From: Alphaproteobacteria bacterium
GTDB lineage: Bacteria > Pseudomonadota > Alphaproteobacteria > Reyranellales > Reyranellaceae
DNA: 64,000 nucleotides
NCBI GenBank assembly: GCA_016870055.1
Contig: VGCQ01000001.1
Coordinates: forward strand, 6,713 to 70,712
Reading direction: 5' to 3'
The translations under genes and the position numbers were made by a program. How positions within the stretch are numbered: the stretch's first letter is position 1; the number at the start of each line of letters is the position of its first letter. Below, piece after piece: positions 11,566-64,000 of the stretch. The notes below the pieces were generated by a model. The model was not told where the DNA came from and did not search any database. It worked only from the letters and a program-made list of their open reading frames with translations.

Positions 11566-12360
11566 ATGGCTTCCGACGAACTGATCGACCTCGGCGACCG
11601 CCGCCTGCGCTTGCGACGACTGGTCCCCCGGCAGGACGACGGATTGCAGCGCACGACCCTGGTTTTCCTGCACGAGGGCCTGGGCTGCATCGAGATGTGG
11701 CGCGACTTCCCGCAGAAGCTATGCGACGCCACGCGCTGCTCCGGCATCGTCTATGACCGCACGGGCTATGGCCGTTCGACCGCCTGGCCGCACGATCCGG
11801 GCGTGCGCTACATGGAACTCGAGGCCGACGAGGTGTTGCCGCGCCTGCTCACGGCACTTGCGGTCGAGGACTGCGTGCTCGTCGGCCATAGCGACGGCGG
11901 CACGATCGCCCTGAACTACGCCGCCTTCGATCCCGAGCCGCTGCGGGCGGTCGTGACCTTGGCCGCCCACGCCATCAACGAGTCGGTGTGCACGGCGAGC
12001 ATCGCCAAGGCCCGAGAGCAGTTTGCGGCCGGAGACCTGCGGCAGCGTCTTGCAAAGTATCACGGCAGCAACGTCGACGGCGCCTTCCGGCTGTGGTCGC
12101 AGGCCTGGCTGGCGCCGGGCTTCGAACCGATGGATGCCGACCGCCGCCTACCCCGTGTCATGGTGCCGGTGCAGGCCATTCAGGGCGAGGACGACGAGTA
12201 CGGCAGCGAACTGCAGCTCGGCATCATCGCCGGCAAGGTCGCCGGCTACTGCGAGACGCGGCTGATCCCCGACTGCGGCCACAGCCCGCACCTGCAGCAA
12301 CCGATTTACGTCCTGGCCGAGATCACCCGCTTCATCGCCCCGTTGGCGCTGGCCGGCTGA
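11566..12360 (+). CDS. Alpha/beta hydrolase
   Basis: FLHEGLG, GHSDGG nucleophile elbow, GEDDEYG, CGHSPH. Confidence 0.88.
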   Translation: MASDELIDLGDRRLRLRRLVPRQDDGLQRTTLVFLHEGLGCIEMWRDFPQKLCDATRCSGIVYDRTGYGRSTAWPHDPGVRYMELEADEVLPRLLTALAVEDCVLVGHSDGGTIALNYAAFDPEPLRAVVTLAAHAINESVCTASIAKAREQFAAGDLRQRLAKYHGSNVDGAFRLWSQAWLAPGFEPMDADRRLPRVMVPVQAIQGEDDEYGSELQLGIIAGKVAGYCETRLIPDCGHSPHLQQPIYVLAEITRFIAPLALAG

Positions 12361-17862: not shown

Positions 17863-18984
17863 ATGCGGCCACGGTCGTCCTTTGCCGGCGCCGCGATCGA
17901 AGTCAGCGACCTTGCGCGGTCGGTCGCCTTCCATCGCCGCTGGCTACCGATGCTGGGCTTCCATCGCGTATGGGCCGGCCCCGACCGCGTGATGTGGTCG
18001 CGCGGCTACGATCATTTCGTCATGCGCCAAGCCAAGGACGGCATCTCCTACGGTCCGGGCGCGCTGTGGCTCGCGGTGGCGGCCGAGAGCCGCGCCCAGG
18101 TCGATCAGGTGTTCGCCGAGCTGCGCGAGGCCGGCGCGGAAATCCTGCAATCGCCCAAGGAGCTCGACTATTTCGCACCCGGCTACTACTCGGTGGCCTT
18201 TCGCGATCCCGACGGTGTGCCGATCGAGGTGGCGCATCGCTGGGACGAGTTGCCCACCTTGGCCGACGCCGACCAGGTCCAGGTGCCGGGCCACGGCGTG
18301 ACCCTGGGCGGCTACTTCTTCAAGCCACAGGCCGGCAACCCGCCCTATCCGGCGCTGATCCTGCTGCACGGCTTCGCCGGCCACGCCCACACCATGGTCG
18401 GCCTGGCGCGCACTTGTGCGGCCAACGGCTATGCCGCGCTCGCCCTGTCGCTGCGCGGCTGGCTCGGCTCGGAAGGCGAAAGCGACCAGGGCCTGCGCCA
18501 GCCGCTCGACGTGCTGGCGGCGATCGACTGGCTGGCCAGGCGGCCACTGGTCGACCGCGAGCGCATCGCCCTGGTCGGCACCTCGATGGGCGGCCAGGTG
18601 GCGCTGCTCGCCGCCGCACACAAGCCGCCGATCCGCGCCGTCGCCTCGTACTACGCGGCGGCCGACCTCGCGGCCTGGTACAAGGCCAATCCCTTCGTGC
18701 GCGACTACCTCGACGATCTGTGCGGGCCGGAGGGCCTGCCGGTGCGCTCGCCCATCCTGCGCGCGGCGCAGATCGACGCGCCGGTGCTGCTGATCCACGG
18801 CGATCGCGACGACAACGTGTCGGTCGGACAGGCGCACACCATGGCCGAGGCGCTGAAGAGCCACGGCAAGGAGGTCGAGACCGTGATCGTGCCGGGTGGC
18901 ACGCACTTTTTCACCGAGCAGCAGAATGCTATGGCGCGGCGCAAGCTGTTCGACTTCCTGCGTCGCCATCTCAACCGGAGCTGA
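17863..18984 (+). CDS. Fusion of a VOC/glyoxalase domain with an S9/dienelactone-hydrolase-like serine hydrolase
   Basis: N-terminal EVSDLARSVAF..and PGYYSVAFRDPDG.PIEV (VOC). C-terminal LHGFAG, GTSMGG, HGDRDDNV and GGTHFF (catalytic triad). No stop between the two parts. Confidence 0.8.
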   Translation: MRPRSSFAGAAIEVSDLARSVAFHRRWLPMLGFHRVWAGPDRVMWSRGYDHFVMRQAKDGISYGPGALWLAVAAESRAQVDQVFAELREAGAEILQSPKELDYFAPGYYSVAFRDPDGVPIEVAHRWDELPTLADADQVQVPGHGVTLGGYFFKPQAGNPPYPALILLHGFAGHAHTMVGLARTCAANGYAALALSLRGWLGSEGESDQGLRQPLDVLAAIDWLARRPLVDRERIALVGTSMGGQVALLAAAHKPPIRAVASYYAAADLAAWYKANPFVRDYLDDLCGPEGLPVRSPILRAAQIDAPVLLIHGDRDDNVSVGQAHTMAEALKSHGKEVETVIVPGGTHFFTEQQNAMARRKLFDFLRRHLNRS

Positions 18985-30572: not shown

Positions 30573-31346
30573 TCAGTTCCGCGCCGCCTGGCCACCGTCC
30601 AGCGTCACGACCACGCCGCTGATGTAGCTGGCGCGGTCGGACGCCAGGAACACCGCGAGATCCGCCACCTCGTCGGGTTCGGCGGGCCGGCCGAACGGCA
30701 TGTGCTTGGTGAGTTCGGGCCAGCGATCAGGGTCGCCCAACTGCTGCTGGGCCTGGCCGCGCAGCAGGGTGAGCATGCGGTCGGTGCGAGTGGCCGGCGG
30801 ATTGATCGCCACCACGCGCACACCGCGATCGACGCTCTTGGAGCCGACAGCGCGGGTGAAGGCCATCAGGCCGGCATTGGCCATGGTCCCGGCGACGTAG
30901 TCGTAATTGTAGGCCTCGCCCGCGAGGCCGATGATGTTCACCACCGCCCCCTTCTTGCGCGCATACATCTTGTCCAGCATGGCGCGGGTGGCGTTGATAT
31001 AGCCGAACACCTTCAGCTCCCAAGACTCGCGCCACTTGGGCTCGGTCATCGCCAAAATGTCGCCGCGCGGGATGGCGCCGGCGTTGTTGACCAGGATGTC
31101 GGCATGACCCACCGCCTCGATCACCGCACGCACCGTGTCGCCCGTCGAGAAATCGGCGGCATGGATCTCGACCGGCACGTTGTGGCGGTCGCGGATCTTG
31201 TCGCGCGCCGCCTCGAGCGACTCCTTGGAACGCGAGGCGATATGGACAGCGCAGCCCTCGGCCGCGAAGGCCATGGCGCAGGCAAAGCCGATGCCGCGGC
31301 TGCCGCCGGTGATCAGCACGGTCTTGCCGGCAAGTTTCAGATCCAT
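30573..31346 (-). CDS. Short-chain dehydrogenase/reductase with atypical active site
   Basis: TGGSRGIG, LVNNAG; YVAGTMAN replaces the usual YxxxK. Confidence 0.88.
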   Translation of the reverse strand: MDLKLAGKTVLITGGSRGIGFACAMAFAAEGCAVHIASRSKESLEAARDKIRDRHNVPVEIHAADFSTGDTVRAVIEAVGHADILVNNAGAIPRGDILAMTEPKWRESWELKVFGYINATRAMLDKMYARKKGAVVNIIGLAGEAYNYDYVAGTMANAGLMAFTRAVGSKSVDRGVRVVAINPPATRTDRMLTLLRGQAQQQLGDPDRWPELTKHMPFGRPAEPDEVADLAVFLASDRASYISGVVVTLDGGQAARN

Positions 31347-34022: not shown

Positions 34023-34901
34023 ATGCGGCGGTTTCTCGCTCTTGTCATTCTGCTCGGCATTGCGGTCGCGGCGATCGGCGGCAGCGCACGGGCCCAGCAG
34101 ACCGTACGGTTCGCCGCCCTCGACGGCGCGAACGGCGCGGCGCCGACCGAGCTCGTCGGCTACCTGTTCCTGCCCGTCGGGCCGGGCCCGCACGCCGCCA
34201 TCGTGTTCATGCACGGCTGCGGCGGGTTGTTCGCACGCGCCACCGGCGAGATCGTGGCACGCGAGACCGCGTGGCGCCGCTCGCTGGTCGAGCGCGGCTT
34301 CGCCGTGTTGATGGTCGACGGCTTCGGGCCGCGCAACACCACCGAGATCTGCTCGCCCGCCAGCTTCAAGCCGGGCCTCTATGCCCGGCGGCCGGGCGAC
34401 GCCTATGCCGCGCTGCTTTTCCTGCGCAGCCGGCCCGACATCAGCCACGATCGCATCGGCCTGATGGGCTGGTCGAACGGTGGCGGCGCGGTGCTGATGG
34501 CCGTCGCTGAGCGCAGCAGCGGACGGCCAGCGAATTTCACCGGGCCGGACTTTCGTGCCGCGGTCGCGTTCTATCCCGGCTCGTGCAGCCCGCAACGGCT
34601 TGGCCCCGACTGGACGACCGAGATTCCCCTGCTGATCCTGGTCGGCGAGGACGATGTCTGGACGCCGGCGGCGCCGTGCCAGGAACAGGCCGAGCAGGCG
34701 GCGCATCTCGGTGCCCCGGTCGTCTTCCACGCCTATCCCGGCGCCCACCACGATTTCGACTGGCCGGGTCTCAAGCGCCGTGAGTTGCCGGCCTTCACGA
34801 TGCGATCCGGCGTCGTGCCGATCGTGGCCGAAGACCCCGCCGCCCGGGCCGATGCGCTGGACCGCGTTGGCGCTTTTCTGGCACGTCACATGTCGAATTG
34901 A
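34023..34901 (+). CDS. Exported dienelactone hydrolase-family protein
   Basis: Signal peptide, [20 protein letters not shown] and GAHHDFD. Confidence 0.85.
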
Positions 34902-57493: not shown

Positions 57494-57976
57494 CTACGCG
57501 CTTTTGGTCGCCCCCGGTGCAACACCGGTCGAGCCGAAGCCGCCGGCGCCGCGCGCCGTACGGTCCAGCTCGCCGACTTCACGCCACATCGCCCGCGCAT
57601 GCCGCGCCACCACGAGCTGAGCAATTCGCATGCCACGGCTGATACGGAACGGTTCTTTGGACAGATTGACCAGGATGACGCCGATCTCGCCGCGATAGTC
57701 GGCGTCGATGGTGCCCGGCGCATTGACGAGCGTAACGCCGTTCTTGGCCGCCAAGCCCGAGCGCGGTCGCACCTGGGCTTCGAAGCCCACCGGCAGAGCG
57801 ATGGCGATGCCGGTCGGCACGATCCGCCGCTCCAGCGACCCGAGTTCGATGTCGCCATCGATCGCCGCCAGAAGATCGGCACCGGCGGCGGCAGCCGTGG
57901 CGTAATCGGGCAACGGCAAATCGCGCGCGTGCGCCAGGCGCACGACCTCGACTTCCACGGTCTCGACGCCTTTCAC
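57494..57976 (-). CDS. dut: dUTP diphosphatase
   Basis: [28 protein letters not shown] and RG.GGFGSTG. The GTG start overlaps the coaBC stop. Confidence 0.96.
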
Positions 57977-59202
57977 TCCGCTGCCTCTGCTTTGGTTGGC
58001 TGGCTGAAATGCAGCGCGACTCGGCCGGCCAGCCGCATCGCGACATCGTCCTTGGACAAGGTCGGCCAGCTCTCGACCCCAGCCGCGCTGATCAGGTGGA
58101 CGGTGTTGCGCTCGCCGCCGAACGTGCCGCTGGCCGGCGACACGTCGTTGGCCACGATCCAATCGCAGCCTTTGCGTCGACGCTTGTCGATGGCGTTGGC
58201 GACCAAGTTCTCGGTCTCGGCGGCAAAGCCCACCACCAGCGCCGGCCGCTGCGGGCCGGGTTTGGCGAGAGTGGCGAGAATGTCGGGATTGAGCGCCAGC
58301 TCGAGCGTGGGCGGCGAGGCGCCGGCTTTCTTCTTGAGCTTGGCCGCCGTCGGACGCGCCGCCTTCCAGTCGGCGACGGCGGCGGCACAGACGGCGATGT
58401 CGATCCGGCCCGCAGCCAAGCAAGCCGCCAGCATCTGGTCGGCCGAGTCGACCCGTACGGTGCGCAGGCCGGGCGGATCGCCGAGCGCCACCGGCCCGCT
58501 GACCAAGGTCACCTGGGCACCCAGTGCCGCCAGCGCCGAGGCGATGGCGTGGCCCTGCTTGCCCGAGGAGTGATTGGAGATGTAGCGCACCGGATCGATC
58601 GCTTCGCGTGTCGGGCCGGAGGTCACGACGGCACGCTTGCCGGCGAGTGGCTGCTCGCGCGGCACCAGCACGCTTTCGATGGCGCTTAGGATCTCGGCCG
58701 GCTCCGACATGCGGCCCGGCCCGAACTCGTTGCATGCCATGGCGCCGTCGTTGGGGCCGACGAAGTGCACGCCGCGCCGCCGCAGGGTCTCGACATTGGC
58801 GACGGTGGCGGCGTGGGTCCACATGCGCACGTTCATGGCGGGCGCCACCAGCACCGGCTTGTCGGTGGCGAGCAGCACGGTGGCGGCGAGGTCGTCGGCG
58901 AGGCCGGCGGCCATGCGGGCCAACAGGTCGGCGGTCGCCGGCGCCATGACCAGGAGATCGGCATCGCGCGACAGCTGGATGTGGCCCATCTCGCTTTCGT
59001 CGGTGAGGGAGAACATGTCGCTGTAGACGCGATCCTCGCTCAGCGCCTGCAGCGACAATGGCGTGACGAACTTGGCGCCGGCTTCGGTGAGCACGCAGCG
59101 CACCGACGCACCTCGTTCACGCAAACGCCGAATCAGCTCGAGCGACTTGAAAGCCGCGATGCCGCCCGAGACGATCAGCAGGATTCGCTTGCCGGTGAGC
59201 AT
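57973..59202 (-). CDS. coaBC: Bifunctional phosphopantothenoylcysteine decarboxylase/ligase
   Basis: [45 protein letters not shown] and GFAAET. Confidence 0.96.
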
Positions 59203-59215
59203 GGCGCTCAGACTA

Positions 59216-59956
59216 TCACAACGCCCGGCTGGCGAAAGTATAGAGCCCGGTCGACAGCAACGCCCAAAACACGGCCAGACGGAACTGTTCGACCGACAGG
59301 CGCAGCCGGATCTGCTGGCCGACCCACATGCCGGCCAGCGCCGGCACGACGGCACCGGCCGACACCAGAGCGCGTGGTCCGTCCAGCAGGCCGAAATTCA
59401 ACAATGAGACGGTGAGCGTGAGCGAGGTCGCACACAGCACGACGCCGAGCGTCTGCACCAGTTCCGACGGCTTGATGTCCAGCCCCTGCAGGTAGGGCAT
59501 CAGCGGAATGATCGGGACTCCGACCACGCCTGCGACGAAGCCCGACGTGGCGCCGATCACCGGCGCCAGCGGCTTCTCCAGGTCGGCATGGATGTGCAGG
59601 CGAATGCGCAGCAGACCGAGCCCGCTGTAGACGACCAGCACGGTCGCCAGCACGATGAAGGCCCAGTTCGGTCCCTTCTGGCCGACCAGCCACATGGTGA
59701 GATAAAGCGTCGCGACCAACGGCAGGATGAGCGGCCACTGCCGCCGCACGATGGTCCGGAAGTTGCCGCCGACCGCCGCCTGCCAGATGTTGGTGAAGAT
59801 GGTCGGCAACGCAATCATGGCGATCGCCTCAGTGAGCGGCAGCACCAGGGTCGTGAGCGCAATCACGATGGTCGGCAGGCCGAGCCCGACCAACCCCTTG
59901 ACCATGCCGGCCAGCAAAAAAACGGCGAGACCGAAGACGATATGATCGGTCGACAT
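59216..59956 (-). CDS. TauE/SafE-family sulfite exporter
   Basis: AGMVKGLVGLGLP, about 8 TM segments and an internal repeat of the G..SG...G pattern. Confidence 0.82.
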   Translation of the reverse strand: MSTDHIVFGLAVFLLAGMVKGLVGLGLPTIVIALTTLVLPLTEAIAMIALPTIFTNIWQAAVGGNFRTIVRRQWPLILPLVATLYLTMWLVGQKGPNWAFIVLATVLVVYSGLGLLRIRLHIHADLEKPLAPVIGATSGFVAGVVGVPIIPLMPYLQGLDIKPSELVQTLGVVLCATSLTLTVSLLNFGLLDGPRALVSAGAVVPALAGMWVGQQIRLRLSVEQFRLAVFWALLSTGLYTFASRAL

Positions 59957-59960
59957 CGAC

Positions 59961-61487
59961 CTAGCGCCACCACGCCGCGACGGCGGCGATCAGGGCGAGG
60001 ATGGCGATGATCTCGGCGGCGCCGGGACGCCAAGTGCGGCCGGCGCGGGGCGGCGCGGCCTCGGCGCGCTCGGCCCTGCGCCGTTCGTGCTCGGCCACGA
60101 CGTGCAAGCTGTCGATCAGCCGCGGCAGGCGGCGCAGGCCGTGCGCCACATCCTGCGCGGCGCGGCCGAGTGTGGCGCGCGGCCCGAAATGGCTTTGCAT
60201 CCACTCCTCGATCAACGGCCGCGCCAGCTCCCAGATGTTGACCTTGGGGTTCAGTCGCGTGCCCATGCCCTCGGCCATCAGCATGGTCTTCTGCAAGAGC
60301 AGGAGCTGCGGCTGCACCGTCATCTCGAATTGCTCGGTGACGCGCAGCAGCTGGGCGAGCAGACGGGCGATCGAGATCTCGTGGCTGGGCTTGCCGAAGA
60401 TCGGCTCGCCGATCGAGCGGCAGGCCTGGGCGAAAACCTCGCGCGGCTGGTCGGGCGGCACGTAGCCGGCGCGGAACTGCACCTCGGCCACGGTGCGATA
60501 GTCGCGGCGCAGGAAAGCGACCAGGAGCTCGGCGAGATAGCCGCGTGTATCCTCGTCGAGGCGGCCCATGATGCCGAAATCGACCGGCACGATATGGCCG
60601 TCGCGGTCGACGAAGGCGTTGCCGCCGTGCATGTCGGCGTGGAAGAAGCCGTCGCGGAACACCTGATAGAAGAACGCCTCGGCGCACTTCTTCATGACGA
60701 CGTCGGGATCGTGACCGGCCGCGACGATGGCGTCGCGATCGCCGATCGGCGTGCCGTCGATGCGTTCCAGCGTCAGCACGCGCTCGGCGGTGCGATCCCA
60801 GTCGATGGTCGGCGCGCGATAGCCCGGATCGTCGGCGAAGTTCTCGCCCAGCTCCTCGGCGGCCGCGGCCTCCATGCGCAGATCCATCTCGATGCGCACG
60901 ACGTCGGCGAAGGCGCGCACCGAATCGACCGGCTTCAGGCGGCGGAAGCGCGGCTCGGTGCGTTCGACCAGCTCGGCGATCCAGTAGAAGAGGTCGAGAT
61001 CGCGCTCGAAAGCTTTCTCGATGCCCGGCCGCAGCACCTTGACCGCGACCTGGCGGCCGTCGGTGGTGACGGCGAAATGGACCTGGGCGATCGACGCGGC
61101 GGCGACCGGCGCGTCCTCGAAACTGGCGAATAGCGCATCGACCGGCTGGCCAAGCTCGGCCGCGACGATGCGGCGCGCCTCGGCGCCGGGAAACGCCGGC
61201 AGGTGATCCTGCAGCCGGGCCAGGTCGAGCGCGACCTGCTCGCTCAGGAGATCGGCGCGGGTCGACAGCGCCTGGCCGAGCTTGATGAAGGACGGGCCCA
61301 TCTCCTGCAGCGCCGCGGTCAGCCGTTCGCCCGGCCGGCGCGGATCTCGACGGCGGGCAAACAGGCGGGCCCAGGCGACCAGAGCCGGCGCGATGCCCAG
61401 CGTCTCCAGCGGGAACAAGGCGTCGTGCCGCGCCAGGCTGAGCGCGATACGCAGCAGCCGCCAGGTGTTGCGGAGGGCGCGCAGCAT
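59961..61487 (-). CDS. ubiB: Ubiquinone biosynthesis kinase-like protein UbiB
   Basis: GPSFIKLGQ, AASIAQVH, AVKVLRP, GFFHADMH and VDFGIMG. Confidence 0.96.
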   Translation of the reverse strand: MLRALRNTWRLLRIALSLARHDALFPLETLGIAPALVAWARLFARRRDPRRPGERLTAALQEMGPSFIKLGQALSTRADLLSEQVALDLARLQDHLPAFPGAEARRIVAAELGQPVDALFASFEDAPVAAASIAQVHFAVTTDGRQVAVKVLRPGIEKAFERDLDLFYWIAELVERTEPRFRRLKPVDSVRAFADVVRIEMDLRMEAAAAEELGENFADDPGYRAPTIDWDRTAERVLTLERIDGTPIGDRDAIVAAGHDPDVVMKKCAEAFFYQVFRDGFFHADMHGGNAFVDRDGHIVPVDFGIMGRLDEDTRGYLAELLVAFLRRDYRTVAEVQFRAGYVPPDQPREVFAQACRSIGEPIFGKPSHEISIARLLAQLLRVTEQFEMTVQPQLLLLQKTMLMAEGMGTRLNPKVNIWELARPLIEEWMQSHFGPRATLGRAAQDVAHGLRRLPRLIDSLHVVAEHERRRAERAEAAPPRAGRTWRPGAAEIIAILALIAAVAAWWR

Positions 61488-61491
61488 GTGG

Positions 61492-62280
61492 CTAGACGCG
61501 CCAGCCCGAATGCAAGGCGACGACCCCCAACGTCATGTCGCGCCAACCGACATTGGCGAAGCCCGCCGCGCGCATGCGGCGGGCAAGCTCACGCTGCGAT
61601 GGGAAGCGCCGGATGCTCTCGTGCAGATAGCGATAGGAATCGGCGTCGCGCGCCACCAGACGACCCATCAGAGGCAGCGCGCGGCTGGAGTAGGCATCGT
61701 AGATCCGGCCGAGGGACGCCGACGTCACTTTGCTGAACTCGAGACAGTAGAAGCGACCGCCCGGCTTCAGCACGCGATACGCCTCGCGCAACGCCTGATC
61801 GATGTCGGTGACGTTGCGCAGTCCGAAGGCGATGGTGTGGCCGTCGAACCAACGGTCGGGAAACGGCAATGCCTCGGCGTCACCGGTCGTCCAGGTCAAG
61901 CCCTTCAGCAGCCCGCGATCGGCGGCGCGATCGCGACCGACCTCGAGCATGGCCGGATTGATGTCGCACACCGTGACGTCCGGCTGGTCTCCCTGGCGGC
62001 GCACAATGCGGAAGGCGATGTCGCCGGTGCCGCCGGCCACGTCGAGAAAGCGCTCACCCGGCCGGGGATTCAGGACATCGACCAGGGCGTTCTTCCAGAG
62101 CCGATGGACGCCACCCGACATCAGGTCGTTCATCAGGTCGTAGCGCGGCGCCACGCTCTCGAAGACATGGCGGACAAGCCCCGCCTTCTCGGCCGCCGGC
62201 ACGTCGCGATAGCCGAACGATGCCTGTTCAGGCGTCGGCGGCGCGCTAGGATCGGGCGGGTTGGCCGATTGGCGTGTCAT
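61492..62280 (-). CDS. ubiE: Ubiquinone/menaquinone C-methyltransferase
   Basis: VF.SVA.RYDLMNDLMS.G.HRLWK, LDVAGGTGD, AFGLRNVT and LKPGGR..CLEFS. Confidence 0.96.
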   Translation of the reverse strand: MTRQSANPPDPSAPPTPEQASFGYRDVPAAEKAGLVRHVFESVAPRYDLMNDLMSGGVHRLWKNALVDVLNPRPGERFLDVAGGTGDIAFRIVRRQGDQPDVTVCDINPAMLEVGRDRAADRGLLKGLTWTTGDAEALPFPDRWFDGHTIAFGLRNVTDIDQALREAYRVLKPGGRFYCLEFSKVTSASLGRIYDAYSSRALPLMGRLVARDADSYRYLHESIRRFPSQRELARRMRAAGFANVGWRDMTLGVVALHSGWRV

Positions 62281-62307
62281 GGGCCCCCGCAACCTAGAGG
62301 AATCGCC

Positions 62308-63042
62308 ATGATGCTGAAAGACCGCGTCCTGCTGATCACCAACGTCGACAAGTTCGCCGGCCACGGCACGACCAGGGTGGCGCTGGCCGAGGGCGCCACC
62401 GTGCTGGCCCACGATCCGGGCTTCGAGGCACCGAGCGCGCGGCGCAAGTACGAGGCGGCGTTCCCCGGCGCGCACGCGCTGTCGGCCGTCGAACCCGCGA
62501 CCCTGGTCGAGCTGGCGCTGAAGCGGCACGGCCATATCGACGCCCTGGTCAACAACGATGCCTACCCCGCTCTGCGCGCGCCGCTCGGCGAGGCGCGCCT
62601 GGAGGACTACCGCGCCGCGCTCGAAGCCATGGCGGTGGCGCCGTTCCGGCTCGCGCAGCTCGTGGCGCCGTCGATGCGCAAGCGCAAGTCGGGCCGCATC
62701 GTGTTCGTGTCGTCGGCCGCGCCATTGCGTGGCATCGCCAACTACGCGCCTTACGTTTCGGCGCGTGCCGCCGCCAACGGGCTCGTCTCCTCGCTCGCCA
62801 AGGAGTTGGGCCGCGACGGCATCACGGTCAACGCCGTGGGTTCAAACTACGTGGAAAATCCGGATTACTTTCCGCCGGCGCTGCTCGCCAATCGCGAGGC
62901 GATGGCCAAGATGACGGCGCAGATTCCGCTGGGCAGGTTGGGCAAGCCGGAGGAATTGGGAGCCGCCGTCTGCTTTCTCTGTTCGGACGCCGCTGGATTC
63001 ATCACCGGTCACGTTCTTCCGCATGCCGGCGGTTGGGCGTGA
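62308..63042 (+). CDS. Halohydrin dehalogenase (SDR fold)
   Basis: T-x4-F-x-G (TNVDKFAG) replaces the Rossmann motif. S-x12-Y-x3-R (S-AAPLRGIANYAP-Y-VSA-R) replaces YxxxK. The NYVENPDYFP loop matches the halide-binding region. Confidence 0.85.
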   Translation: MMLKDRVLLITNVDKFAGHGTTRVALAEGATVLAHDPGFEAPSARRKYEAAFPGAHALSAVEPATLVELALKRHGHIDALVNNDAYPALRAPLGEARLEDYRAALEAMAVAPFRLAQLVAPSMRKRKSGRIVFVSSAAPLRGIANYAPYVSARAAANGLVSSLAKELGRDGITVNAVGSNYVENPDYFPPALLANREAMAKMTAQIPLGRLGKPEELGAAVCFLCSDAAGFITGHVLPHAGGWA

Positions 63043-63186
63043 CGCCGTCAAAGGCGCATGTCACTATGATCACAAGTAAGCGCTGCGCACGGCGACCGCA
63101 GCGCAGCGGCCAGGGAGGATGACGGAAAGAGGCTGGCATAGTGCCGGCGCGTCGCTCTTTGGCCAACCCCGGTCCGAGGACGGCGT

Positions 63187-64000
63187 ATGGGAAGACAGAT
63201 CGTCCACCGCCTGCTGGTCTCGTTCCCCGCGTTGCTCGGGGTGCTGTTCCTGTGCTTCTGCCTGCTGCAGGTCGTGCCGGCCGATCCGGCGATGATCATC
63301 GCCGGCCCCGATGCCAAGGCAGAAACCATCGCCGCCATCCGCAGCGAACTCGGCCTCGATCGCCCCATCCCTGTCCAGTTCATCGAATACATCGGCCGCG
63401 TGCTGCGCGGCGATCTCGGTCGCTCGATCATCTCCAACAAGATGGTGAGCGAGGAGCTGGCGCTGACCATCGGCCCGACCGTCGAGCTGATGCTCGGCGC
63501 CATGCTGATCGCCGTGCCGTGCGGTCTGGCGCTGGGCACGCTCGCCGCCGTGCGCCGCGGCAGCATCACCGACCGCATCATCATGGCCTTCTCGGTCGCC
63601 GGCGTTTCGATGCCGGTGTTCTTCATCGGCCTGATCCTGATCCAGTATGTCGGCTTCAAGTGGGCGATGCTGCCCTTCACCGGCCGCACTGGGCCGGTCT
63701 GGGACGGCGGCCTGCCCAGCCTGATCCTGCCGGCGGTGACGCTGGGTGCCGTGCTGATTGGCCCGATCGCCCGGCTGACGCGCACCGCCGTGCTGGAGGT
63801 GCTGGGTGCCGACTTCGTGCGCACCGCGCGCGCCAAGGGCCTGCGCGAGACGGTGGTGATCATCCATCACGCCCTGCGCAACGCACTGATCCCGGTGGTG
63901 ACCCTGATCGGCCTGCAGGCCGCCTTCCTGCTGGGCGGCGCGGTGGTGACCGAGACCATGTTCTCCTGGCCGGGCGTTGGCCGCCTGGCGGTCGGCGCCA
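63187..64000 (+). CDS. Peptide/nickel ABC transporter permease (DppB/OppB-like), 3' end truncated by the window edge
   Basis: VPADPA, ELGLDRP..VQF..Y....L.GDLGRS, EAA loop TRTAVLEVLGADFVRTARAKGL and HHALRNALIP. Confidence 0.92.
   Translation, partial: MGRQIVHRLLVSFPALLGVLFLCFCLLQVVPADPAMIIAGPDAKAETIAAIRSELGLDRPIPVQFIEYIGRVLRGDLGRSIISNKMVSEELALTIGPTVELMLGAMLIAVPCGLALGTLAAVRRGSITDRIIMAFSVAGVSMPVFFIGLILIQYVGFKWAMLPFTGRTGPVWDGGLPSLILPAVTLGAVLIGPIARLTRTAVLEVLGADFVRTARAKGLRETVVIIHHALRNALIPVVTLIGLQAAFLLGGAVVTETMFSWPGVGRLAVGA

What the first reader, a model, noticed from the sequence alone, without database searches (positions are those of the whole stretch)
62308..63042. Candidate halohydrin dehalogenase hidden among ubiquinone/CoA housekeeping genes
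Seen: the 244-aa SDR-fold protein lacks the TGxxxGxG cofactor motif and the YxxxK lysine. It carries T-x4-F-x-G (TNVDKFAG), a catalytic S-x12-Y-x3-R and an NYVENPDYFP loop. Established: these two motifs are the signatures used to separate halohydrin dehalogenases (cofactor-free haloalcohol/epoxide enzymes valued as biocatalysts) from ordinary SDRs. Inference: automated annotation would probably call it a plain SDR. Its natural substrate is unknown, and no dehalogenation or epoxide-hydrolase genes sit next to it.
Basis: partly seen in the sequence, partly recalled or inferred. Interest (0 to 1): 0.75.

Follow-up and report, generated by a model that had tools for sequence, protein, structure and literature searches.

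The report
Known halohydrin dehalogenase (HheA11 ortholog)
The gene really does encode a cofactor-free halohydrin dehalogenase labelled only as a generic dehydrogenase in databases, but it is a 95%-identical ortholog of the already catalogued enzyme HheA11 and 89% identical to a solved crystal structure, so it is a correct but not a new find.

Summary
ORF 62308-63042 (+) encodes 244 aa with T11-x4-F16-x-G18 and S136-x12-Y149-x3-R153. It has no TGxxxGxG and no YxxxK. The interpretation as a halohydrin dehalogenase (HHDH) is supported. The protein is 95.1% identical to Reyranella massiliensis WP_020698933, which a 2016 review lists as HheA11 with activity verified by unpublished data. It is 89.3% identical over its full length to PDB 6A41, titled 'Dehalogenation enzyme'. 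In an NJ tree it groups with these two (98% bootstrap), inside an HHDH clade split from classical SDRs (94%). So the enzyme is already known.

One result goes beyond the finding. In all 80 Reyranellaceae species-level genomes retrieved, the gene sits divergently beside ubiE, 18-34 bp away in most loci. It evolves under tighter purifying selection (median dN/dS 0.07) than ubiE, ubiB and coaBC (0.16-0.18). No epoxide hydrolase or dehalogenase gene is linked to it. This points to a conserved, still unknown physiological role rather than an acquired xenobiotic-degradation trait. Interest is low for the enzyme itself and modest for the question of its natural function.

The parts
62308..63042 (+). 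hhe gene: 244-aa halohydrin dehalogenase, an ortholog of HheA11
   Evidence: ORF and translation. 95.1% identical to WP_020698933 (HheA11) and 89.3% to PDB 6A41. Coding-type GC3 of 0.87. dN/dS 0.07 across 80 orthologs.
62338..62361 (+). HHDH motif 1, T11-N-V-D-K-F16-A-G18. It lines the nucleophile/halide pocket and replaces the SDR Gly-rich NAD(P) motif.
   Evidence: T11, F16 and G18 align with HheC T7, F12 and G14. They are invariant in all 81 orthologs and in alignment A1.
62713..62766 (+). HHDH motif 2, the catalytic triad S136-x12-Y149-x3-R153
   Evidence: The residues align with HheC S132, Y145 and R149. They are invariant in all 81 orthologs.
62845..62874 (+). N180-YVENPDYF-P189 loop, equivalent to the HheC halide-binding loop (N176, Y177, L178 ... 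F186)
   Evidence: Pairwise alignment to HheC variant 3ZN2. N180 to P185 and Y187 to P189 are invariant across orthologs.
62281..62307 (+). 27-bp divergent intergenic spacer holding the conserved leader and Shine-Dalgarno sequence (CAACCTAGAGGAAtcGCC) just before the ATG
   Evidence: The block is conserved at 90% or more in 81 loci.
61492..62280 (-). Context only: ubiE (demethylmenaquinone/ubiquinone methyltransferase), divergently transcribed and conserved as a neighbour
   Evidence: Pfam Ubie_methyltran, E 2e-84. It lies divergently upstream of hhe in 80 of 80 loci.

Best explanation
The ORF encodes a functional A/C-type halohydrin dehalogenase, the ortholog of HheA11 in a lake-water Reyranellaceae bacterium. 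It has the SDR Rossmann fold.

Proposed mechanism:
- The NAD(P) site is replaced by an anion pocket lined by T11, F16, G18 and the N180-Y181-V182...F188 loop.
- S136 positions the substrate hydroxyl. Y149, whose pKa is lowered by R153, removes the hydroxyl proton.
- The resulting alkoxide displaces the neighbouring halide to form an epoxide.
- In reverse, the enzyme opens epoxides with halide, azide, cyanide or nitrite.

Shown here: sequence motifs, orthology, fold, strong purifying selection and conserved genomic position. Inferred: the catalytic mechanism, by homology to HheC, and in-vitro activity, from the literature note on HheA11 and the name of 6A41. Unknown: the in-vivo substrate. The gene behaves as a vertically inherited, tightly constrained core gene, not as part of a xenobiotic degradation cassette.
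For: - Motifs are present and the SDR motifs are absent. The motif definitions come from PMC4989007 and PMC11976700.
- PDB phmmer search: 6A41 'dehalogenase' at E 1.6e-145 over 1-244. HheC follows at about 1e-44 to 1e-45 and HheA/HheA2 at about 1e-40. The best classical SDR (FabG) is at 3e-27.
- The L012 protein is WP_020698933.1, which is HheA11 in Table S1, marked as experimentally verified by 'unpublished data'. It is 95.1% identical to the window protein.
- NJ tree with 200 bootstraps: the window protein groups with HheA11 and 6A41 at 98%. The Reyranella-type clade has 100% support. HHDH-motif proteins separate from classical SDRs at 94%.
- AF2 model (pLDDT 82.6, pTM 0.85) has TM 0.92 to 6A41 and 0.86-0.89 to HheA and HheC.
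- All six motif residues and the halide loop are invariant in 81 orthologs. Median dN/dS is 0.071.
- Metatranscriptome contigs from related strains cover the gene.
Against: - No enzymatic assay exists for this sequence. The activity of HheA11 is cited only as unpublished data, and no open paper describing 6A41 was found.
- Overall identity to HheC (39%) is hardly higher than to a FabG-type SDR (38%). Fold comparison does not separate HHDHs from SDRs either: FabG 4NBU ranks second. The assignment therefore rests on the motifs, the profile scores, the tree and close orthology.
- Several HheC substrate-pocket residues differ: W139 to I143, L142 to Y146, P84 to A88, F86 to R90, Y187 to P189 and P175 to S179. 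Substrate scope may therefore differ from HheC.
- The metatranscriptome evidence is weak. The contigs come from related strains, and DNA carry-over is possible.
Confidence: 0.9

Rival explanations
1. The protein has HHDH chemistry, but its real cellular job in Reyranellaceae is a conserved housekeeping-type reaction on an endogenous metabolite. Candidates are a natural epoxide or halohydrin, or another anion-dependent ring-opening or ring-closing step. Degradation of man-made haloalcohols would then be only a side activity. This concerns the in-vivo role and is compatible with the best explanation.
For: - The gene is at the same position, divergent from ubiE, in 80 of 80 species-level genomes.
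- Amino-acid identity is 86-96%, higher than UbiE (70-93%), UbiB (82-90%) and CoaBC (79-89%).
- Median dN/dS is 0.071, against 0.164-0.185 for those neighbours and TauE. dN is lower than UbiE in 75 of 76 loci and lower than CoaBC in 66 of 66.
- No epoxide hydrolase or dehalogenase partner appears in the window or in the related loci examined.
- R90 is invariant at the position aligned with the HheC pocket residue F86.
- The 2016 review states that only two HHDH genes lie in an operon with an epoxide hydrolase and that other physiological functions cannot be excluded.
Against: - No substrate is indicated. The downstream neighbours vary: a Dpp-type ABC operon in 50 of 80 loci (tblastn), and ribonucleotide reductase or a methyltransferase among others.
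- The ubiE adjacency is lost in relatives at 70-73% identity, so it looks like lineage synteny rather than functional coupling.
- The share of Reyranellaceae genomes that lack the gene was not measured.
Confidence: 0.45
2. It is an ordinary NAD(P)(H)-dependent short-chain dehydrogenase/reductase, as the database labels say.
For: - Pfam adh_short_C2 and adh_short hits.
- Database names are 'SDR family oxidoreductase', and one cluster is named '3-oxoacyl-ACP reductase FabG'.
- A FabG structure ranks second in the fold search.
Against: - There is no Gly-rich dinucleotide motif, and F16 occupies that site. The catalytic Lys is replaced by R153.
- No NCBIfam SDR equivalog reaches its cutoff; the best scores 134.6 bits against a cutoff of 215.
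- It is a close ortholog of HheA11 and 6A41.
- It is separated from classical SDRs with 94% bootstrap support.
Confidence: 0.03
3. It is a catalytically dead or decaying relic of an HHDH or SDR.
For: None specific. The only support is the lack of a pathway context.
Against: - The ORF is intact in 80 of 80 loci.
- dN/dS is 0.07, and the triad and pocket residues are invariant.
- The Shine-Dalgarno leader is conserved.
- Metatranscriptome contigs cover the gene.
Confidence: 0.02

Closest known systems
HheA11, Reyranella massiliensis 521 (WP_020698933; Schallmey & Schallmey 2016, Table S1)
   Same: 244 aa and 95.1% identical, with both HHDH motifs. It lies in the same 90%-identity cluster and at the same genomic position, divergent from ubiE and followed by the Dpp-type ABC operon.
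   Different: 12 substitutions, none in motif or pocket residues. The source is a lake-water metagenome bacterium rather than the type strain.
PDB 6A41, 'Dehalogenation enzyme' / 'dehalogenase' (UniRef A0A5H1ZR29, Rhodospirillaceae; 99.6% identical to the protein of Rhodospirillaceae bacterium CCH5-H10)
   Same: 89.3% identical over all 244 residues, with identical motifs. The AF2 model superposes on it with TM 0.92.
   Different: 26 substitutions. No associated open-access paper was found, so its reported activity could not be read.
HheC, Agrobacterium radiobacter AD1 (PDB 1PWX and variants)
   Same: Same fold and same Ser-Tyr-Arg triad (S132, Y145, R149 correspond to S136, Y149, R153). Same motif 1 (T7, F12, G14 correspond to T11, F16, G18). 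The halide-loop residues N176, Y177 and F186 are conserved.
   Different: Only 39% identical. The window protein has no C-terminal extension (HheC chains are 254 aa against 244 aa here). Pocket residues differ: W139 to I, L142 to Y, P84 to A, F86 to R, Y187 to P. According to PMC11976700, HheC works together with an epoxide hydrolase in A. radiobacter. Here there is none nearby.
HheA / HheA2 (Corynebacterium sp. N-1074, Arthrobacter sp. AD2; PDB 4Z9F, 1ZMO)
   Same: Same family and the same A/C superclade (71% bootstrap). Similar length with no C-terminal tail.
   Different: 35-36% identical. The branching order inside the A/C group is unresolved (support of 20% or less), so the label 'A-type' is nomenclature rather than a demonstrated monophyletic group here.

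Membership tests
Halohydrin dehalogenase (HHDH, SDR superfamily) | Motif 1, T-X4-F/Y-X-G, near the N-terminus in place of the SDR motif T-G/A-X3-G/A-X-G | tested here: met
   T11-NVDK-F16-A-G18 is present and there is no Gly-rich motif. Definition from PMC4989007 and PMC11976700.
Halohydrin dehalogenase (HHDH, SDR superfamily) | Motif 2, S-X12-Y-X3-R (catalytic Ser-Tyr-Arg, with Arg in place of the SDR Lys) | tested here: met
   S136-x12-Y149-x3-R153 is present and there is no YxxxK. The residues are invariant in 81 orthologs.
Halohydrin dehalogenase (HHDH, SDR superfamily) | Halide/nucleophile-binding loop equivalent to HheC residues 175-187 | tested here: met
   N180, Y181, V182 and F188 align with HheC N176, Y177, L178 and F186. 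P175 becomes S179 and Y187 becomes P189. This is an alignment-based test only.
Halohydrin dehalogenase (HHDH, SDR superfamily) | Phylogenetic placement with verified HHDHs, apart from cofactor-dependent SDRs | tested here: met
   In the NJ tree the HHDH/SDR split has 94% bootstrap support and the window protein groups with HheA11 and 6A41 at 98%. HheE, HheF and HheG sequences were not included.
Halohydrin dehalogenase (HHDH, SDR superfamily) | SDR Rossmann fold; homotetramer | tested here: inconclusive
   The fold criterion is met: TM 0.92 to 6A41 and 0.86-0.89 to HheA and HheC. Fold does not discriminate HHDHs from FabG. The oligomeric state was not tested.
Halohydrin dehalogenase (HHDH, SDR superfamily) | Cofactor-independent dehalogenation of vicinal haloalcohols and epoxide ring opening with anions | not testable with these tools
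   Only indirect support: the 2016 review lists HheA11 (95% identical) as verified by 'unpublished data', and 6A41 was deposited as a 'dehalogenase'.
HheA11 orthologous group (Reyranellaceae HHDH) | High identity to WP_020698933 and the same locus | tested here: met
   95.1% identity and the same 90% cluster. Same ubiE-divergent position.
A-subtype HHDH (monophyly with HheA/HheA2) | Forms a clade with HheA and HheA2 that excludes HheC | tested here: inconclusive
   The inner nodes of the A/C superclade have 20% bootstrap support or less. phmmer scores HheC slightly above HheA and HheA2.
Classical NAD(P)-dependent SDR | TGxxxGxG dinucleotide-binding motif and catalytic YxxxK | tested here: not met
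   Neither pattern is present. No NCBIfam SDR model reaches its cutoff.

The most novel reading that the evidence does not exclude
In Reyranellaceae the HHDH is not a xenobiotic-degradation accessory. It is a core single-gene function with an endogenous substrate, kept under tighter constraint than the ubiquinone and CoA biosynthesis genes beside it. Because cultured hosts exist (R. massiliensis 521, R. soli, R. aquatilis, Enhydrobacter aerosaccus ATCC 27094), this clade could be used to find the long-unknown natural role of halohydrin dehalogenases. The invariant R90 at a substrate-pocket position hints at a polar or anionic natural substrate.
Probability: 0.4. Interest if true: 0.55.

Novelty: already known. 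Interest (0 to 1): 0.22.

Why it matters
HHDHs are valued biocatalysts for making chiral epoxides and beta-substituted alcohols. This one adds little to the toolbox, because a 95%-identical enzyme (HheA11) is already catalogued and an 89%-identical one is crystallised. Two points have practical value. First, current annotation pipelines still name the whole clade 'SDR family oxidoreductase': its 90% cluster alone has 1156 members, and neither Pfam nor NCBIfam gave an HHDH-specific hit, so motif-aware annotation is still missing. Second, the evolutionary pattern is that of a physiologically important enzyme: a core gene in a fixed position, with dN/dS 0.07 and no pathway partner. That makes Reyranellaceae a reasonable model for asking what HHDHs do in nature.

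Tried and rejected
- Pfam and NCBIfam scans gave only generic SDR hits, nothing HHDH-specific.
- Full-text searches for '6A41', 'HheA11', Reyranella or Enhydrobacter with HHDH, and 'Rhodospirillaceae bacterium' with HHDH found only the 2016 review. No paper describes 6A41. A search on the physiological role found nothing new.
- Structure prediction and the Foldseek search confirm the fold and 6A41 as the best hit. They cannot separate HHDHs from FabG-type SDRs, so they do not settle function.
- Genomic context as a clue to function: the ubiE linkage is conserved down to about 80% identity (P0107) but lost at 70-73%. Downstream genes vary. I rejected the idea of a functional link to ubiquinone biosynthesis or to the ABC transporter.
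- The promoter and terminator scan found nothing useful: no sigma-70-like site and no terminator after hhe.
- The first tree attempt with Biopython timed out and was replaced by a numpy NJ implementation. HheE, HheF and HheG reference sequences could not be obtained, so they are missing from the tree.
- A check of other window genes for epoxide hydrolase or dehalogenase candidates found only generic alpha/beta hydrolases 27-50 kb away (11566-12360, 17863-18984, 34023-34901).

Full report
**Observation.**
The + strand ORF 62308-63042 starts with ATG, ends with TGA and encodes 244 aa. Its GC content by codon position (0.70/0.50/0.87) matches the other genes of this 67% GC window. The overlapping minus-strand ORFs are high-GC artefacts. 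A Shine-Dalgarno-like AGAGGAA sits a few bases upstream of the ATG. The block CAACCTAGAGGAAtcGCC-ATG is conserved at 90% or more in 81 related loci, which supports this start codon.

The protein contains the following:
- TNVDKFAG at residues 11-18.
- SAAPLRGIANYAPYVSAR at residues 136-153, that is S-x12-Y-x3-R.
- NYVENPDYFP at residues 180-189.
- No T[GA]xxx[GA]xG and no YxxxK.

**Are the motifs meaningful?**
The literature defines HHDH fingerprints as T-X4-F/Y-X-G (motif 1, nucleophile pocket) plus S-X12-Y-X3-R (motif 2, catalytic triad). The SDR equivalents are T-G/A-X3-G/A-X-G and S-X10-14-Y-X3-K (PMC4989007 and PMC11976700).

An exhaustive phmmer search of 1.84 billion 50%-identity cluster representatives found 85,368 clusters at E<=1e-3 but only 55 at E<=1e-30. 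Among the top 150, the high-scoring block carries the HHDH motifs and the rest carry the classical SDR motifs. No representative with both classical SDR motifs carries both HHDH motifs.

**Identity.**
A phmmer search against PDB sequences gave these results:

| Hit | E-value |
|---|---|
| 6A41 'dehalogenase', residues 1-244 of 244 | 1.6e-145 |
| HheC entries | 4e-45 to 6e-41 |
| HheA / HheA2 | about 1e-40 |
| HheD2 (7B73) | 4e-30 |
| Best FabG | 3e-27 |
| HheB | 1e-26 |

The 6A41 sequence is UniRef A0A5H1ZR29, 'Dehalogenase, Rhodospirillaceae'. It is 99.6% identical to the protein of Rhodospirillaceae bacterium CCH5-H10.

A scan of GTDB species-representative genomes returned 80 loci. All are from Reyranella, Enhydrobacter or related MAGs, at 86-96% protein identity. 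One of them is Reyranella massiliensis 521. Its protein is WP_020698933.1. Table S1 of Schallmey & Schallmey 2016 lists that accession as HheA11, with 'unpublished data' in the column for experimental verification, and the text counts it among HHDHs with confirmed activity.

Pairwise identities of the window protein:

| Compared with | Identity |
|---|---|
| HheA11 | 95.1% |
| 6A41 | 89.3% |
| HheC variant (3ZN2) | 39.1% |
| HheA2 / HheA | 35.7% / 35.0% |
| HheB | 34.1% |
| HheD2 | 37.3% |
| PDB 8XXB | 36.9% |
| A FabG-like SDR | 37.7% |

Raw identity therefore does not discriminate HHDHs from SDRs. Profile scores, motifs and the tree do.

**Tree.**
The NJ tree used a Kimura distance, 243 columns and 200 bootstraps. 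It included reference sequences taken from the PDB alignments HHDH-like representatives, five more distant relatives and 8 classical SDRs. Bootstrap support was:
- Window protein with HheA11 and 6A41: 98%.
- Reyranella-type clade: 100%.
- All HHDH-motif proteins against classical SDRs: 94%.
- An A/C superclade that excludes the HheB and HheD types: 71%.
- Branching inside the A/C group: unresolved.

**Structure and catalytic residues.**
The AF2 model has mean pLDDT 82.6 and pTM 0.85. Its best PDB match is 6A41, 'Dehalogenation enzyme', released 2019-06-19, at TM 0.92. HheA and HheC match at TM 0.86-0.89, but FabG structures reach 0.80-0.85. Fold confirms the superfamily only.

Alignment to HheC maps residues as follows:

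| HheC | Window protein |
|---|---|
| T7 / F12 / G14 | T11 / F16 / G18 |
| S132 / Y145 / R149 | S136 / Y149 / R153 |
| N176 / Y177 / L178 / F186 | N180 / Y181 / V182 / F188 |

Pocket positions that differ:

| HheC | Window protein |
|---|---|
| W139 | I143 |
| L142 | Y146 |
| P84 | A88 |
| F86 | R90 |
| Y187 | P189 |
| P175 | S179 |

The window protein also lacks the C-terminal tail of HheC.

The inferred mechanism follows the one described for HheC in PMC4989007. Ser positions the substrate hydroxyl. Tyr, assisted by Arg, deprotonates it. Intramolecular displacement of the halide into the anion pocket forms the epoxide, and the reaction is reversible with other anions.

**Annotation.**
Pfam gives only adh_short_C2 and adh_short. 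No NCBIfam model reaches its cutoff. Public names are 'SDR family oxidoreductase', 'NAD(P)-dependent dehydrogenase' and, for one cluster, '3-oxoacyl-ACP reductase FabG'.

**Context.**
Genes upstream on the minus strand:
- ubiE, 61492-62280. Its start codon is only 27 bp from the hhe start.
- ubiB, 59961-61487.
- tauE, 59216-59956.
- coaBC, 57973-59202.
- dut, followed by Rrf2, CMD, GNAT and a 3-hydroxyisobutyrate-dehydrogenase-like gene.

Downstream, a Dpp/Opp-type ABC permease starts at 63187 (+).

In all 80 related loci ubiE lies divergently upstream. The gap is 18-34 bp in most loci. The downstream gene varies: the ABC operon in 50 of 80 by tblastn, and otherwise ribonucleotide reductase, a methyltransferase or other genes. 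A relative at 80% identity keeps the ubiE linkage. Relatives at 73% and 70% identity do not. The adjacency is therefore lineage synteny, not evidence of a functional link. No epoxide hydrolase or dehalogenase gene lies nearby. The only alpha/beta hydrolases found in the window are 27-50 kb away.

**Selection.**
Codon-aligned comparisons of the window genes with their orthologs:

| Gene | Median dN/dS |
|---|---|
| hhe | 0.071 |
| ubiE | 0.170 |
| ubiB | 0.177 |
| tauE | 0.185 |
| coaBC | 0.164 |
| permease | 0.118 |

dN of hhe is lower than that of ubiE in 75 of 76 loci and lower than that of coaBC in 66 of 66. In the 81-sequence alignment 126 of 244 columns are invariant. These include every motif residue, the halide loop and R90.

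The window derives from a lake-water metagenome. Metatranscriptome contigs from related freshwater and soil strains cover the gene. This is weak evidence that it is transcribed.

**Conclusion.**

The one point that goes beyond the literature I could read is the evolutionary behaviour of the gene. In Reyranellaceae it is a fixed-position, highly constrained gene with no pathway partner. This fits the review's remark that HHDHs may have physiological functions other than haloalcohol mineralisation.

Noticed in passing
Proteins P0173, P0186, P0203, P0227 (also P0201, P0216, P0220); not in the window: A subclade of HHDH-like proteins keeps motif 1 and the Arg but has no Tyr at the S-x12-Y position. 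Examples are P0173 ...TSARPLRPEPGFAVPTSVRAG and P0186 ...TSCRMRLPVPGGAIPDAARGA. They cluster together in the NJ tree. They may be HHDH relatives with a different catalytic arrangement.
   Followed up: no
window 62281-62307: The ubiE (-) and hhe (+) start codons are only 27 bp apart (18-34 bp in most related loci). Each gene's promoter must therefore lie inside the other gene's coding sequence. No sigma-70-like site was detected.
   Followed up: partly
window 63080-63107: A GC-rich inverted repeat, GCGCTGCG-(9 nt)-CGCAGCGC, lies between the hhe stop codon and the ABC permease start. It has no T-run and was not called as a terminator. One 628-nt metatranscriptome contig (run X21) from a related strain joins the 3' end of hhe to the permease gene, which hints at read-through.
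   Followed up: partly
window 63187-63999 (+), continued in L012:6882-12453: A five-gene Dpp/Opp-type ABC transporter operon (permease, permease, substrate-binding protein, two ATPases) follows hhe in 50 of 80 related genomes. Its first permease is as conserved as hhe (88-96% identity, dN/dS 0.12).
   Followed up: partly
window 30573-31319 (-): A classical SDR with a TGGSRGIG Gly-rich motif lies in the same window. It serves as an internal contrast to the HHDH.
   Followed up: no
window 17863-18984 (+): A 373-aa fusion of a glyoxalase/VOC domain (residues 11-123) with an alpha/beta hydrolase of the dienelactone-hydrolase / S9 type. It sits next to a DinB-family protein and a nitroreductase.
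   Followed up: no
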